Assembly: GCA_018400815.1 (NCBI GenBank) | Contig: JAGYLS010000057.1 | Span: 1-10,945 of the forward strand | Length of the DNA stretch: 10,945 nt | Direction: 5' to 3' | Origin: Candidatus Oleincola secundus | GTDB taxonomy: Bacteria; Atribacterota; Phoenicimicrobiia; Phoenicimicrobiales; Stramentimicrobiaceae | Shown here: piece after piece, positions 5,598 to 10,945 of the stretch | Position numbering within the stretch: position 1 is the stretch's first letter | Layout: each line of letters begins with the position of its first letter | Translations under genes and position numbers: made by a program | The notes under the pieces: model-generated | Databases searched by the model: none | What the model was told of the DNA's origin: nothing | What the model saw: only the letters and a program-made list of their open reading frames with translations

Positions 5598-6776
5598 TCA
5601 GTCTGGATCAAATATATATTCAGAAGGAGGATGTTCCAGGTAATGATATTGAAAAAGGATATATTCTATTATTCTTTTTGCAGCCTGACCGTCACCATAA
5701 GGGGATTTATTTATCACCATCTTTTGGTATTCAGCGGGGTTAAATAGTAATTTCTCAACCTCATTGCTAATTTTTTTTGCTTCAGTTCCTACAAGTTTTG
5801 CTGCTCCTATTTTTACCACCTCCGGTCTTTCGGTTTCTGACCTTAATATCAACACTGGCTTACCTAATGCCGGTGCTTCTTCCTGAATTCCACCTGAATC
5901 AGATAAAATCAAGGTAGAGAGTGAAATCATATTGGCCATTTGCTGATAATCCAAAGGTTCTGATAGAATAATATTCTTTTTCTCTTGCAAATGATTAAAA
6001 ACCACCTTTCTTATTAATGGATTTTTATGTACCGGAAATACTATTACCAGGTTTTTTTGTTTCTGATTTAAATTTAATAATACCTTGCAAAGGTCTTCAA
6101 GCGGTTTTCCCCAATTTTCACGTCGGTGCATTGTCACCAGTAATACCTGTTTCCCCTTATCAAGGAGCTTGTTGATTCTCTCATCAGAAAATCTAAATTG
6201 ATTATTTTGCATCAACAACAATGAATCAATAACCGTATTGCCGGATGTGAAAATATTTTTTTTTGCAATTCCTTCTTTGTATAAGGCATGAGTAGCGGTT
6301 GTTGTGGGAGTAAAATGATAATCAGCTAACACTGTTGTTAATCTTCTGTTCATCTCCTCAGGATAAGGATAATATTTTTTTGATGTTCTCAATCCCGCTT
6401 CAATATGCCCGACCTTTATCTTTTGATAAAAAGCTGCCAGGGCACCTGAAAAAGTTGTAGTAGTATCACCCTGTACCAAAGCTAAATCGGGCTTAATTTT
6501 TTTGAGGACCTCTTCTAATTTTAGAAGTGATTGAGAATTGATTTGAGACAATGACTGTCCGTGTTTCATAAGATCCAAGTCAAAATCGGGATAAATTTTA
6601 AAAAGGTTAGTCATTTGATCCATCATCTCTCTATGCTGTGCAGTCAAAATGACTATTGGTTCAATCCATTGAGAATATTTTTTTGACTCTCTTATTACGG
6701 GATACATCTTGATGGTTTCCGGTCTTGTTCCAAAAATAAAGGCTATTTTTATTTTTTTATTGCTACTTATATTCAT
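5598..6776 (-). CDS. wecB: UDP-N-acetylglucosamine 2-epimerase (non-hydrolysing)
   Basis: [70 protein letters not shown] and SPYGDG. The ATG at 6776, preceded by GAAGAGA and overlapping the upstream gene end, is preferred to the track start at 6791. Confidence 0.96.
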
Positions 6777-7212
6777 AGTGAATCTCTTCAATTTTTGCTT
6801 CCTGCAATAGCTTCCTGGCTAATTCATCAGGGTAGCTTTTTTGATAATATATCTTTATAATTCCGGCATTAATTATCATTTTAACACAAGTTATACAAGG
6901 CTGGTCTGTGCAGTAAATGTTACTGTTTTGAATACTAATACCATACATTGCGGCTTGAATGATGGCATTTTGCTCAGCATGCAACCCTCTGCATAACTCT
7001 TGATGTGTCCCGGATGGAAGTTGCAATTTTTCACGCAAACAACCAACTGCCTCACAATGAACTAACCCTCGAGGTGCACCGTTGTATCCGGTAGTTAAAA
7101 TTCTTCTGTCTTTAACGATAACTGCTCCGACTTTTCTTCTTAAACAAGTTGACCTGCTTGCCACCAATTTGGCAATTTCCATAAAATATTTGTCCCAGGA
7201 AGGTCTGGACAT
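6763..7212 (-). CDS. Cytidine/deoxycytidylate (dCMP) deaminase family protein (ComEB-like)
   Basis: [31 protein letters not shown] and Zn-binding HAEQNA...PCITC. SD-like AGGGGG 6 nt upstream of the ATG. Confidence 0.94.
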
Positions 7213-7228
7213 TGTTAACCCCCTAATC

Positions 7229-7266
7229 AGTATTCAGTATCGAGTATGTAGTATCGAGTATCGAGT
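7229..7266 (+). repeat. Heptamer array, family A (AGTATCG/AGTATGT), 5 units, directly upstream of the deaminase SD
   Basis: AGTATTC AGTATCG AGTATGT AGTATCG AGTATCG AGT. Further family-A arrays or single units start at 7341, 7454, 7663, 7791, 7956, 10203, 10450 and 10536. Confidence 0.95.
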
Positions 7267-7322
7267 TTAAATAAATACAGTTTTTAATTCTTCGTTTTCA
7301 GTTTACAGTCAATAATTAAAAT

Positions 7323-7452
7323 CGTATTGCGTACAAAAACAGTATCGAGTATGTAGTATCGAGTATCGAGTTCAATACAAAACTACAATACAAAATATAA
7401 ATACAATAAATCAATATAGTATGAGAATAAAGTATATAATATAATGCCTAAA
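7323..7452 (+). repeat. Copy 1 of a ~130-bp imperfect direct repeat (copy 2 at 7645-7774)
   Basis: Both start CGTATTGCGTACAAAAACAGTATCGAGTATGTAGTATCG and share ACAATACAAAATATAAA and TCAATATAGTATGAGAATAAA; offset 322 bp. Confidence 0.92.
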
Positions 7453-7472
7453 CAGTATCGAGTTCTAAATAC

Positions 7473-7500
7473 AGTAATAAGTAACAAGTAATGAGTAATC
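7473..7500 (+). repeat. Heptamer array, family C (AGTAAYN), 4 units
   Basis: AGTAATA AGTAACA AGTAATG AGTAATC. An identical array is at 7820-7847, a 5-unit variant at 8037-8071 and a 2-unit version at 10483-10496; each is preceded by TAAATAC. Confidence 0.93.
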
Positions 7501-7630
7501 AGCAAGAAAATAATATCCAAGCTCCCAGTTAAAACAGCATAACACTAAAAACAAAGAATGTGAAATCTTATCTGGATATAAAACCTAAGAACCATAAATA
7601 AAAAATGGTTTTCCAATTGACTAAATAATT

Positions 7631-7654
7631 CGTATTGCGTCGTGCGTATTGCGT
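7631..7654 (+). repeat. Heptamer array, family D (CGTATTG)
   Basis: CGTATTG CGTCGTG CGTATTG CGT; a single unit is at 7323. Confidence 0.8.
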
Positions 7655-7774
7655 ACAAAAACAGTATCGAGTATGTAGTATCGGGTATCGAGTCAAATAC
7701 AAGAATGACAATACAAAATATAAACACAATAATTCAATATAGTATGAGAATAAAATATATCGTATAATCCTAAA
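7645..7774 (+). repeat. Copy 2 of the ~130-bp imperfect direct repeat
   Basis: Aligns with 7323-7452 with scattered substitutions and two 1-nt indels. Confidence 0.92.
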
Positions 7775-7858
7775 TTATTATCTAATATATAGTATCGGGT
7801 ATCGAGTTTAAATAAATACAGTAATAAGTAACAAGTAATGAGTAATCAATATAAAACC

Positions 7859-7889
7859 AGTTTTCAGTTCTTAGTTTTCAGTTTACAGT
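7859..7889 (+). repeat. Heptamer array, family B (AGTTTTC), 4 units
   Basis: AGTTTTC AGTTCTT AGTTTTC AGTTTAC AGT; related arrays at 7279-7309, 8111-8127 and 10622-10659. Confidence 0.9.
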
Positions 7890-8109
7890 TAATACAAAAT
7901 ATAATAAAAATCAATAGTAAATTAAAATGCAAGAATTCAGTCGGCCGGTCAAAGCAGTATCGAGAATAAAGACAAACCCCAATCACTAATCTTCAGTCAC
8001 CAATCAAAACAGGTGCAATTATCGAGCATTAAATACAGTAATGAGTAATTAGTGACAAGTAATAAGTAATCAGCAATATAAATCAATTTTCCAATTGACT
8101 CATTAAAAC

Positions 8110-8234
8110 CAGTTGTCAGTTTTTAGTCAAATGTAATCGAAAATCTTTAGGGAATTATCTTCTCCTCTTACTTCCCTCTGCCTCGGTGGATTTCTAATAT
8201 TTTCCCTCTCCCCTCGGAGGGAGAAATAAAAGAA
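8110..8234 (+). repeat. Direct-repeat module (second copy at 10642-10756) ending in a REP-like hairpin
   Basis: 8110-8178 matches 10642-10710 at 65/69. Both continue into a C-rich/G-rich hairpin (TCTCCC-CTCGGA-GGGAGA at 8207-8224) followed by AAATAAAAGAA. Confidence 0.92.
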
Positions 8235-8312
8235 GCTGGTATTTTTTGAATTATCCATTATTGCAATATTGCCTTATTCCATCCTTGCAAAAATATAAGC
8301 ATGGAATTACTT

Positions 8313-8345
8313 TTAACTGAAAACTGATAACAGAAATCTGAAAAC
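8313..8345 (-). repeat. Inverted copy of heptamer family B
   Basis: The reverse complement GTTTTCAGATTTCTGTTATCAGTTTTCAGTTAA matches 7860-7892 at 27/33. Confidence 0.8.
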
Positions 8346-8371
8346 CTTCTTTCACTTATTCCATGGTATTT

Positions 8372-8399
8372 TACTACATACTATATACTAATTTTAAGA
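8372..8399 (-). repeat. Left arm of the inverted repeat bracketing aspS (inverted family A; contains the aspS stop codon)
   Basis: TACTACATACTATATACTA-A-TTTTAAGA is the reverse complement of 10194-10220: 19 perfect pairs, a 1-nt bulge, then 8 perfect pairs. Confidence 0.9.
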
Positions 8400-10180
8400 T
8401 GCAATTCCTTCAATTGTTCAGGACTGACTCCTGATGGTGCACCTGTTAAAGGACAGGTAGCTTTTTGTGTTTTAGGAAATGCTATTACTTCCCGTATAGA
8501 ATTTGTGCCAGTCAATAACATAACCAACCTATCCATTCCAAAAGCAATTCCTCCATGAGGAGGTGCGCCATATTGCAAGGCTTCCAGCAAAAAGCCAAAT
8601 TTTTGTTCTGCTTCTTGTTGTTTAATACCCAAAAGATTAAATATTTTTTGCTGTAACTCTGTCCGGTGAATACGAATACTACCTCCCCCAATCTCATTAC
8701 CGTTTAATACCAAATCATAAGCTTTGGAACGAACTCGATAAGGATCTTTGTCCAATAAAGAAATATCTTTGTCCACCGGAGCAGTAAAGGGATGGTGCAT
8801 TGATGTATAACGTTTTTCGGCATTGGAATACTCAAATAACGGAAAATTAGTAACCCATAAAAATTCGTATCGATCGTCTTTAATTAAATTTAAATCTTTA
8901 GCTAATTTGATTCGAACCATACCCAGCGCTTGTAAGGTCTGTTCACTGGGTCCGGCAACAATAAAAATTAGGTCACCAGGTACTGCCTGCATTTCTTGCT
9001 TGATTTTTGCTATTTCATCGACAGAAAGATATTTCCCGATAGAAGATTGAATATTGCCATCTTCCTTAAAACGAATATAGGATAATCCCGCTAAACCAAG
9101 TGATTTTACATAGTAATGCAAATCGTCAATATTTTTTCGGGAAAAGGTCTCTGGTTTTTCAGTCTTTAGAGCACTGATTGTTCCATTCTCAGCAACTATG
9201 TTGGAAAACACCTTAAAATCTGCCTCTTTAAATATTTGATTTAAATTATGAATCTCCATCCCATATCTTAAATCAGGTTTATCAATTCCGTACTTAGAAA
9301 TTACTTCATCATAATCATATCTGAGAAAAGGTTTTTTTATTTTTTTGTTTAGTATCTTCTGAAATAAAAGAATCATCAAATCTTCAATAAGGTTAAATAA
9401 TTCATCTCTATCTATAAATGACATTTCAATATCCAATTGAGTAAATTCAGGTGCCCGGTCTGCCCGCAGGTCTTCATCCCTGAAACAACGTACAATCTGA
9501 TAATATTTATCAAATCCACTTATCATAAGTAATTGTTTGAATAGTTGTGGTGACTGAGGTAAAGCATAAAATTTACCAGGATTGACCCGGCTTGGTACAA
9601 TATAATCCCTCGCCCCTTCAGGCGTACTCTTAGTCAAGAAAGGTGTTTCAATATCGAGAAATCCCCTATCATTTAGAAAATTGCGAATGGTCTGACTTAC
9701 TTGATGGCGAATAATAATATTTTTTTTCATTTCCGGTTTTCTAAGATCCAGGTAGCGATATTTTAACCGGAGGTCATCCCCAATTTCGGAATATTCATGT
9801 ATACTAAAGGGGGGCGGTTCTGATTGGTTTAATATATTCATGTCACTCACCTTGACTTCGATTTCACCAGTTTTCAAGTTGGGATTTATAGCGTCTTCCC
9901 CTCTATGAATGACCTCTCCTTTTACTGAAATAACGAATTCATTCCTAATTTTATGAGCCGCAAGGTGCGCATCTTTTGATACTCTTGGATCAAATACAAC
10001 TTGGGTTTTACCCTCACGGTCCCTCAAATCAACGAAAATGAGCCCTCCGTGGTCTCTGCGTGTATTAACCCATCCCATTAATACTACTTTTTCTTTGATA
10101 TTCTTTTGATTCAGTTCTCCACAGTTATGGGTTCTTTTCCATGTGTCCAGGTTATTATTTACTTTTTCGGGTATGCTCAT
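8381..10180 (-). CDS. aspS: Aspartate--tRNA ligase (bacterial type, with GAD insert)
   Basis: [67 protein letters not shown] and [22 protein letters not shown] (10189-10194) is 8 nt from the ATG at 10180; the track's GTG at 10189 overlaps that SD. Confidence 0.98.
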
Positions 10181-10188
10181 TTTTTTCA

Positions 10189-10194
10189 CTCCTT
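10189..10194 (-). promoter_or_regulatory. Shine-Dalgarno sequence of aspS
   Basis: The minus strand reads AAGGAG-TGAAAAAA-ATG. Confidence 0.8.
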
Positions 10195-10233
10195 CTTAAA
10201 ATAGTATATAGTATGTAGTATCGGGTATCGGGT
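10194..10233 (+). repeat. Right arm of the aspS-bracketing inverted repeat (10194-10220), continuing as a family-A heptamer array
   Basis: TCTTAAAAT AGTATAT AGTATGT AGTATCG GGTATCG GGT; 10210-10244 also matches 7670-7704 at 34/35. Confidence 0.9.
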
Positions 10234-10261
10234 CAAATACAAGATAATACAGGAAATATCG

Positions 10262-10278
10262 CACCCGCATAGCGGGTG
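10262..10278. other. GC-rich perfect hairpin, possibly an IS200/IS605-type end remnant
   Basis: CACCCGC-ATA-GCGGGTG, a 7-bp stem in very AT-rich context. The minus strand reads AAAACCACCCGCTATGCGGGTG. Confidence 0.5.
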
Positions 10279-10449
10279 GTTTTAAGAATCTCTAAAAGAG
10301 GTTTGACTTTTTAGCTCTTTTTTTTCGATTTTTTATTTATACTTTAGCTATAATATTTCTAAGCAATATAACTTCCAACCTTGGACTTCAGGTGAAAAAT
10401 TGTTATCTAGCTTATCTTAATCTTTTTATGGTAAAACCATTTATTTAAA

Positions 10450-10552
10450 AGTATCGAGTATGTAGTATCGAGTCCTAAATACAGTAATGAGTAATCAGCA
10501 AGAAAAATCAATTGTTCAATTTGCTAATTAAAATCAGTATCGAGTCCTAAAT
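10450..10552 (+). repeat. Composite of family A and family C heptamer modules
   Basis: AGTATCG AGTATGT AGTATCG AGT CCTAAATAC AGTAATG AGTAATC AGCAAGAAAA..., resembling 7454-7510 and 8020-8113. Confidence 0.88.
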
Positions 10553-10576: not shown

Positions 10577-10614
10577 AATTTACCAATTAACCAATTTACC
10601 GGTTTACCAATTAA
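10577..10614 (+). repeat. Octamer tandem array (AATTTACC), ~4.5 units
   Basis: AATTTACC AATTAACC AATTTACC GGTTTACC AATTAA. Confidence 0.85.
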
Positions 10615-10641: not shown

Positions 10642-10756
10642 CAGTTTTCAGTTTTTAGTCAAATGTAATCGAAAATCTTTAGGAAATTATCTTCTCCTCA
10701 TACTCCCCTCACCCCCACCTTCATCCTCCCCCCTCAAGGGGGAGGAAATAAAAGAA
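10642..10756 (+). repeat. Second copy of the 8110-8234 module, with a REP-like hairpin
   Basis: 65/69 identity to 8110-8178; hairpin TCCTCCCCC-CTCAA-GGGGGAGGA (10724-10746) preceded by CCCCTCACCCCCACCTT. Confidence 0.92.
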
Positions 10757-10945
10757 AAGAGTTAATCTCCCCTCAAGAAGAAGGGATTAAAAAAAGAGTT
10801 AGTCCTTCCCTCAAGGGGGAAATAAAAAAAGAGTTAATCCTTCCCTCAAGAAGAAAAAAAACAAAATAATAGTCAGTCCTTTCCCTTCAAGAGGAAGAAA
10901 TAATAGAAAAGTTATTCTTTCCCTCAAAGGCAGGACATTATCTTC
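10724..10945 (+). repeat. Degenerate ~38-bp tandem repeat, six units with a CCCTCAAG core and A-rich linkers; may continue beyond the window
   Basis: Cores at 10731, 10770, 10808, 10843, 10883 and 10921 (spacings 39, 38, 35, 40, 38). Linkers are AAAAAAAGAGTTA-like. Confidence 0.88.

What the first reader, a model, noticed from the sequence alone, without database searches (positions are those of the whole stretch)
8372..10220. aspS is bracketed exactly by a 27-bp inverted repeat joining its ribosome-binding site to its stop codon
Seen: 8372-8399 and 10194-10220 are reverse complements (19 bp perfect, 1-nt bulge, 8 bp perfect). On the mRNA strand the 5' arm UACUACAUACUAUAUACUAUUUUAAGA runs straight into the SD (AAGGAG). 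The 3' arm UCUUAAAAUUAGUAUAUAGUAUGUAGUA covers the last codons (L-K-I-S-I) and the UAG. The match includes the AGTATAT variant, which is not in any other family-A array here, and 8 non-repeat bases, so it looks partner-specific rather than generic repeat similarity. Inference: a long-range stem could place the whole 1.8-kb ORF in a loop with stop and start side by side. That could support ribosome recycling, gate initiation, or form an RNase III-type processing stem that releases a monocistronic aspS RNA. A DNA inversion or insertion scar is an alternative.
Basis: partly seen in the sequence, partly recalled or inferred. Interest (0 to 1): 0.78.

Follow-up and report, generated by a model that had tools for sequence, protein, structure and literature searches.

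The report
Neighbouring repeat arms flank aspS gene
The inverted repeat around this essential tRNA-synthetase gene is real, but its two halves are stock copies of a 7-base repeat family that sits before starts and after stops across this bacterial lineage, so the bracket is likely a by-product of repeat spread and a probable DNA crossover, not a switch built for this gene.

Summary
The 19 bp + bulge + 8 bp inverted repeat is real, and its 19-mer occurs only at these two places in this genome. It is not aspS-specific. The arms belong to polar 7-bp arrays: AC-phased before starts, GT-phased after stops. The 19-mer occurs 34 times in 16 of 39 genomes; 27 of 30 loci inspected are not aspS. Within this genome 63 of 406 same-family array pairs match as well. 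Relatives at 95-96% aspS identity carry another 5' repeat family. Complete elements bracket PF05635 four-helix-bundle genes in the opposite geometry (17 of 26), and three aspS loci have one adjacent. The 3' arm looks chimeric: from inside it, the DNA matches the post-upp spacer of relatives, implying a crossover between arms. The aspS stem is thermodynamically feasible, and a small excess of matched brackets remains unexplained but is matched by non-pairable neighbours. This scan found the same pattern before on other DNA (e1-5297820, e1-5287819).

The parts
10194..10220 (-). 5' arm: last units of an AC-phased heptamer array ('right arm') ending at the Shine-Dalgarno
   Evidence: 26 of these 27 nt recur at a non-aspS locus, L298
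10198..10244 (-). whole right-arm module that contains the 5' arm; direct copy of 7658-7704
   Evidence: 91.5% over 47 nt, bit score 68 against 43.7 for the inverted match
10189..10194 (-). Shine-Dalgarno AAGGAG; AGGAG lies just inside the putative loop
   Evidence: sequence
8381..10180 (-). aspS, aspartate-tRNA ligase, 599 aa from the ATG
8372..8399 (-). 3' arm: GT-phased array ('left arm') overlapping the last codons and TAG
8366..8379 (-). inferred crossover interval: 14 nt shared by this spacer and the post-upp spacers of G000 and G001
8251..8375 (-). spacer DNA whose best matches among all held sequences are the post-upp spacers of G013 (84% over 113 nt) and G001 (87% over 55 nt)
8305..8350 (-). 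second left arm (AACTG-type family, GT phase)
7858..7896 (-). right arm of the AACTG-type family; predicted partner of 8305-8350
   Evidence: I1, 77% over 39 nt; duplex -29.9 kcal/mol and paired in the fold
7658..7704 (-). right-arm copy of family A; predicted alternative partner of the aspS 3' arm
7230..7266 (-). right arm of family A directly before the Shine-Dalgarno of the next gene
6763..7212 (-). ComEB / dCMP-deaminase-like gene; follows upp in relatives, follows aspS here
   Evidence: TIGR02571, E 3e-40, below cut-off
8110..8178 (.). direct repeat of 10642-10710, downstream copy
   Evidence: 94% over 69 nt
10642..10710 (.). direct repeat of 8110-8178, upstream copy
10254..10450 (.). high-copy dispersed element 34 nt upstream of the 5' arm
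   Evidence: 44 copies of at least 60% length in G000; its end competes for the 5' arm in the fold

Best explanation
The two arms are ordinary members of a polar family of 7-base arrays that lies AC-phased before ribosome-binding sites and GT-phased after stop codons throughout this lineage, and they likely belong to two different intergenic elements, one on each side of aspS, so that the inverted repeat is likely a by-product. Shown: complete elements read left arm, four-helix-bundle (PF05635) gene, right arm, with both arms of one unit family, and such genes sit directly beside aspS in three relatives. Inferred: an element inserts at a stop/start junction, its arms pair across the spacer in the mRNA like the stem of a 23S rRNA intervening sequence (a possible RNase III substrate), the cargo is lost, and arms persist, slip and are exchanged. 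Any gene with a slot on each side ends up with inward-facing complementary ends whenever both slots hold the same family. Inferred for this locus: the perfect match arose from a small unit vocabulary, the S-I-stop codons already made of array units, and a crossover inside the 3' arm that joined aspS to the spacer that follows upp in relatives.
For: Polarity: with at least 4 units, 10 AC vs 1 GT arrays upstream and 29 GT vs 3 AC downstream among 1,819 crude ORFs; periods 5, 6, 8 and 9 show nothing comparable. Pooled over held DNA: 155 vs 40 in 3,233 start windows, 188 vs 41 in 3,272 stop windows; 46 of 188 stop arms reach the stop codon. Stock sequence: 19-mer 34 times in 16 of 39 genomes, reversed control 0; 27 of 30 loci inspected are not aspS. 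Family background: 38 of 406 array pairs share at least 19 nt, 63 of 406 score at least 49, the aspS score. Cassettes: 17 of 26 full-flank PF05635 loci have GT-up plus AC-down, 0 of 26 the reverse; own 45.2 vs 23.7, permutation p 5e-5; within-genome mean rank 0.17 for 10 of 19 selected cassettes that had enough controls. PF05635 genes adjoin aspS in L021, L029 and L006. No conservation: own-arm duplex -33.8 here, -11.5 (G001, 96%), -17.0 (L134, 95%), -13.3, -15.3, -20.9 in four more distant or equal relatives. Geometry test: top-decile matches in 7 of 34 inward pairs across one gene, 13 of 66 same-direction pairs that cannot base-pair, 8 of 23 outward pairs. Crossover.
Against: This pair is among the best in its genome (rank 0.04 of 28 comparisons). 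Five of 21 other two-armed genes fall in the top decile (binomial p 0.052), including aspS of G014 with a different family; same family at both ends in 10 of 17 vs 6.2 expected, this case included. Across 28 aspS orthologues own arms beat cross-genome shuffles (p 0.011), though kinship and genome-wide family preference confound that. Empty spacers show only weak arm matching (n=47, mean rank 0.42, p 0.029; outward pairs with no gene between, n=91, rank 0.49). The left arm that should partner the 5' arm is not on this contig, and no cargo ORF lies in either spacer here. No RNA-end data were obtained.
Confidence: 0.74

Rival explanations
1. One reading: the arms are selected to pair with each other, closing aspS into a loop that juxtaposes stop and start or makes an RNase III site releasing a monocistronic aspS RNA. 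Arrays supply the raw material and selection tunes the match gene by gene.
For: Perfect 19 bp unique in the genome; stem within 0.7 kcal/mol of the best fold or part of it; RNase III present; complementary aspS ends from another family in L010 and L011 (scores 45, 43) and partly in L004 (31); 5 of 21 other brackets in the top decile.
Against: Absent in the 95-96% relatives; the G007 5' arm pairs better with four of five foreign 3' ends than with its own; the excess is equalled by non-pairable neighbours; the 3' arm includes coding sequence that terminating ribosomes would open (inference); a nearer alternative partner exists downstream.
Confidence: 0.13
2. The identity reflects DNA-level events at this gene: recent gene conversion or template switching between the two facing arms, or occasional inversion of aspS between them. 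The ORF, its ribosome-binding site and stop would survive inversion but lose the upstream transcript.
For: Arms evidently recombine: gene order differs from relatives with a breakpoint inside the 3' arm; neighbouring arrays are more alike than distant ones (same-direction pairs in one spacer, mean rank 0.39, p 0.0003).
Against: No strand-switching joint among the 15 joints listed for four DNA runs (82 more not shown; contigs drop rare forms). Identity stops at 19 nt, and each arm is explained by its own stock module.
Confidence: 0.08
3. The variant unit in the 5' arm is kept because it forms the -10 box of an aspS promoter (TTGACC, 17 nt, TACTAT at 10236-10208); transcription would start near 10201 and leave most of the 5' arm out of the RNA, so the match with the 3' end is incidental.
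For: The site is listed by the consensus scan (9 of 12), and other copies of the module have a different hexamer at that position.
Against: Promoter-like sites in the region are not above shuffles (21 vs 16.9 +/- 3.9). Start arms carry such sites less often than starts without arms (22 of 155 vs 663 of 3,076).
Confidence: 0.05

Closest known systems
Polar intergenic GGGAATC / GGGGA(C/T)T heptamer repeats of Xanthomonas and Nostoc (Rehm et al. 2015 as named in a scan note; PMC4692102, passages read)
   Same: 7-nt units, about four per array; one strand within 0-50 bp before ORFs, the other within 0-50 bp after or overlapping stop codons; convergent inverted pairs (70 and 75 cases); turnover between close species.
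   Different: Units there are G-rich and studied as quadruplexes; here they are AT-rich, AC-phased and fall into several families. The passages read make no link to a cargo gene and do not discuss gene-bracketing pairs.
TAACTGA direct repeats of Beggiatoaceae, Cyanobacteria and Bacteroidetes (PMC4679880; abstract, introduction and passages read)
   Same: AC-phased heptamer arrays in forward orientation just before start codons; reverse orientation after or towards stops in a minority; one family here (AACTG type) is nearly the same unit.
   Different: There mostly one unit, often replacing the Shine-Dalgarno; here arrays precede a normal one, stop-side arrays are at least as common, and several families co-occur.
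ORF-bearing 23S rRNA intervening sequence (Coxiella burnetii IVS with S23p; PMC4990558, passages read)
   Same: A PF05635-type four-helix-bundle ORF inside a stem of about 28 bp with a bulge, heptamer repeats at its 5' end, cut by RNase III. PF05635 resembles Avd of diversity-generating retroelements (PMC10053308, passage read).
   Different: The IVS lies in rRNA and its arms face the cargo. At aspS the arms have the opposite polarity to those around PF05635 genes, the enclosed gene is an essential housekeeping gene, and cleavage is untested.
Composite transposons / invertible segments (recalled, not read)
   Same: A chromosomal gene between two related elements, with inverted ends; gene order here differs from relatives.
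   Different: No transposase or recombinase in the window, no target duplication seen, no inverted form seen, and the breakpoint lies inside an arm, as for homology-driven crossover.

Membership tests
Polar intergenic heptamer repeats (STRR / GGGAATC / TAACTGA type) | Tandem degenerate 7-nt units, intergenic, far above chance | tested here: met
   63 of 68 arrays intergenic; pattern 69 hits vs 3 for the reversed control in G000
Polar intergenic heptamer repeats (STRR / GGGAATC / TAACTGA type) | Fixed strand polarity before starts and after stops | tested here: met
Polar intergenic heptamer repeats (STRR / GGGAATC / TAACTGA type) | Rapid turnover between close relatives | tested here: met
   three different 5' families before aspS among six relatives at 82-100% identity
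IVS-type PF05635 cassette with heptamer arms | PF05635 ORF between the arms | tested here: not met
   the enclosed gene is aspS; the only PF05635 hit of G000 is on C101; met at aspS-adjacent slots of L021, L029, L006
IVS-type PF05635 cassette with heptamer arms | GT arm upstream and AC arm downstream of the enclosed gene | tested here: not met
   aspS has the reverse; the spacers on either side of genes have this order
IVS-type PF05635 cassette with heptamer arms | Stem cut by RNase III | not testable with these tools
   gene present; only assembled RNA contigs were available, which show no ends
Conserved long-range RNA structure | Pairing kept with compensatory change in orthologues | tested here: not met
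   lost in G001 and L134 (95-96%), L136 and L137 (85%); arms are not alignable, so no covariation count was run
Conserved long-range RNA structure | Match to an Rfam family | tested here: not met
   0 hits at gathering score in the window
Invertible segment / composite transposon | Both orientations or mobility seen; recombinase nearby | tested here: inconclusive
   no strand-switch joint among listed rows, table truncated, contigs only; no recombinase among window ORFs

The most novel reading that the evidence does not exclude
Heptamer arms are a lineage-wide RNA pairing code: each arm can pair across a spacer or across a gene, and some genes (aspS here and in G014/G010, glmM, uvrA, pilB-like genes elsewhere) have been tuned into closed loops or RNase III-released single-gene RNAs, while the same arms act as crossover points that reshuffle operons gene by gene, as the aspS-deaminase junction suggests.
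Probability: 0.12. Interest if true: 0.78.

Novelty: new member of a known kind. Interest (0 to 1): 0.3.

Why it matters
As a single locus it is ordinary: one more gene caught between two polar repeat arms. Two points carry value. It gives a worked null model for 'gene exactly bracketed by an inverted repeat' in heptamer-rich genomes. It also shows a probable crossover inside an arm that changed the neighbour of an essential gene, a concrete sign that these unexplained repeats act as operon-shuffling points. The link between the arms and PF05635 genes was not found in my paper searches, but this scan has noted it many times (122 findings hold the search words).

Tried and rejected
Rfam: nothing in the window. 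Promoter role of arms in general: not supported. Assembly artefact at the arms or at the aspS/spacer junction: unlikely, unbranched contigs of two studies span 8228-8511 unchanged; the rest of the 1.17-kb spacer is covered only in pieces, so the full aspS-deaminase adjacency is not confirmed by reads. RNA runs: four metatranscriptomes held small shares and mostly diverged relatives; none of the 15 joints listed (20 more not shown) links the arms; uninformative. Cross-genome shuffles were set aside as confounded by kinship and genome-level family preference. Links between the upp contig (C40), hisS contig (C34) and this contig could not be closed; asnS, ygfA and rpsA are not in the assembly, so relocation of aspS and a single reciprocal crossover cannot be told apart. 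glmM and ssb orthologues were located but their flanks could not be obtained, so the within-genome test rests on 22 genes (genes from genomes with fewer than four control arms were dropped). My ORF and start calls are crude; two arrays (C79, C204) may be mislabelled, and without them 2 of 39 other start-by-stop pairs reach the aspS score, against 6 of 55 with them. A paper search for native bacterial start-stop looping (listing only) showed none. No supplements were consulted.

Full report
Observation. The repeat is as described: 8372-8399 against 10194-10220, 19 bp, one bulged base, 8 bp. The enclosed ORF is aspS, most likely starting at the ATG at 10180. On the mRNA the 5' arm ends on the first A of AAGGAG and the 3' arm covers L-K-I-S-I, the stop and 9 nt more. 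The 19-mer occurs twice in the 2.02-Mb assembly. Read contigs of two studies carry the arms unchanged. The two nearest named aspS relatives in the genome collection (96% and 85%) are titled uncultured Atribacterota, so the host very likely is one.

The arms are members of a polar family. Both are 7-periodic arrays with AC at every seventh position. In this genome such arrays of at least four units lie AC-phased before starts (10 vs 1) and GT-phased after stops (29 vs 3) among 1,819 crude ORFs; other periods do not behave so. Pooled over all held DNA the counts are 155 vs 40 and 188 vs 41, and 46 of 188 stop arms reach the stop codon. The arrays occur in all 39 genomes searched, at 1 to 497 hits per genome. 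The next gene in the window has the same family before its own Shine-Dalgarno (7230-7266). This polarity, including overlap with stop codons and convergent pairs, is in print for Xanthomonas and Nostoc (PMC4692102, passages) and partly for Beggiatoaceae (PMC4679880, passages).

The match is not partner-specific. The 19-mer occurs 34 times in 16 of 39 genomes; of 30 loci inspected, 27 are not aspS, and one (L298) carries 26 of the 27 nt of the 5' arm, so the 'non-repeat' tail is stock too. Among the 29 family-A arrays of this genome, 38 of 406 pairs share 19 nt or more and 63 score at least as high as the aspS pair; among start-by-stop pairs 6 of 55 others do, or 2 of 39 without two doubtfully labelled arrays. 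The 5' arm is part of a 47-nt module with a 91.5% direct copy at 7658-7704, and a 69-nt direct repeat (94%) flanks aspS as well; both outscore the inverted match.

Relatives do not keep it. The S-I-stop ending, itself made of array units, is shared by six close aspS copies, whereas the 5' array belongs to three different families among them. Own-arm duplex energies are -33.8 kcal/mol here, -11.5 (G001, 96%), -17.0 (L134, 95%), -13.3 and -15.3 (85%) and -20.9 (G007, 82%); the G007 5' arm pairs better with four of five foreign ends than with its own.

Where the arms really pair. Of 26 PF05635 loci with full flanks, 17 have a GT arm upstream and an AC arm downstream, none the reverse, and by inspection each of the 17 uses one family on both sides (own 45.2 vs 23.7; p 5e-5). 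Against arms of the same genome the mean rank was 0.17 for the 10 of 19 selected cassettes with enough controls. PF05635 genes lie between asnS and aspS in L021 and L029 and right after aspS in L006, and a DUF559 gene occupies the upstream slot in L136. So the slots on both sides of aspS take cassettes, and aspS sees their outer faces. This is the layout of the Coxiella 23S intervening sequence, a four-helix-bundle ORF in a 28-bp stem with heptamer repeats, cut by RNase III (PMC4990558, passages). RNase III is encoded here. That mRNA spacers are cut the same way is inference.

Folding. The aspS duplex is -31.2 kcal/mol. In the 3.1-kb fold from 10300 to 7200 the 3' arm instead closes a nested stem across the downstream spacer (8396-8372 with 7656-7680; 8346-8319 with 7859-7892) and the 5' arm folds locally. 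The margin is only 0.7 kcal/mol, and the aspS stem wins if the RNA starts at 10236 or ends at 8340. Folding therefore does not decide; it shows competition.

Enrichment tests, for and against. Across 28 other aspS orthologues own arms beat cross-genome shuffles (p 0.011), as do arms across the asnS-aspS spacer (n=20, p 0.0003); both are confounded. Within genomes, 21 other two-armed genes have mean rank 0.46 (Wilcoxon p 0.29) with 5 in the top decile (p 0.052); 47 spacers have 0.42 (p 0.029). Same family at both ends: 10 of 17 vs 6.2 expected. By geometry, top-decile matches make up 7 of 34 inward pairs across one gene, 13 of 66 same-direction pairs and 8 of 23 outward pairs (only the last p 0.014). 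Local likeness of neighbouring arrays thus explains the small excess, but the samples are small and a weak selected effect is not excluded.

A crossover in the 3' arm. In relatives upp is followed by the deaminase and aspS by a ygfA-like gene (name recalled from the sequence, not scanned); here aspS is followed by the deaminase. The DNA after the aspS stop matches best, among all held sequence, the post-upp spacers of G013 (84% over 113 nt) and G001 (87% over 55 nt). This genome's own upp keeps 46 of the first 47 nt of the G001 spacer and then diverges, just after a 14-nt stretch shared with the aspS spacer (8379-8366). The simplest reading is recombination between two stop-side arms. The outer unit of the 3' arm, which completes the 19-bp match, then came from another gene's arm. 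The left-arm module is partly generic (L136 matches at 75%), so the assignment is likely, not certain; asnS, ygfA and rpsA are missing from this 86%-complete assembly.

Verdict. A real feature and a likely by-product of a known class of polar heptamer repeats. The tie to PF05635 cassettes was not found in five paper searches but has been noted repeatedly in this scan, and two earlier findings reached the same by-product reading for other genes; I had seen the PF05635 neighbours before reading those notes. The locus adds a probable arm-mediated rearrangement next to an essential gene.

Noticed in passing
window 10254-10450: High-copy dispersed element (44 copies of at least 60% length, 68 for its first 67 nt) inserted 34 nt upstream of the 5' arm; read depth there is tens of times that of aspS.
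   Followed up: partly
window 8110-8178 and 10642-10710: 69-nt direct repeat at 94% flanks aspS 2,532 nt apart, each beside a CCCCTC...GAGGG-type palindrome; it could serve as a deletion substrate and is a stronger match than the inverted repeat.
   Followed up: partly
window 10731-10927: About five tandem 35-39-nt units built on a short palindrome, running to the contig end; a DUF559 gene sits in the same slot in L136.
   Followed up: partly
window 7213-8370: 1.17-kb ORF-free spacer made of duplicated modules of at least four heptamer families, nearly all in right-arm orientation; read contigs show length variants in it.
   Followed up: partly
window 10577-10612: An 8-periodic array in the upstream spacer; 8-periodic arrays also flank the only PF05635 gene of G000 (L043), whose heptamer arms are of another type.
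   Followed up: no
G000:C52:85-1536: A second, shorter aspartyl-tRNA-synthetase-like ORF (484 aa, about 47% to aspS over two stretches, lacking the middle part), while asnS is not in the assembly; may be a non-discriminating enzyme or a stray contig.
   Followed up: no
G000 C62, C120, C124 (L039, L040, L032): Small two-gene pairs that look like bacterial toxin-antitoxin modules (labels recalled from sequence, not scanned) lie between same-direction family-A arrays; the C62 block recurs in C124.
   Followed up: no
L010 and L011 (G014, G010): aspS there is bracketed by about 90-100 nt of loose inverted similarity from the AACTAAA family, an independent bracket at the same gene.
   Followed up: partly
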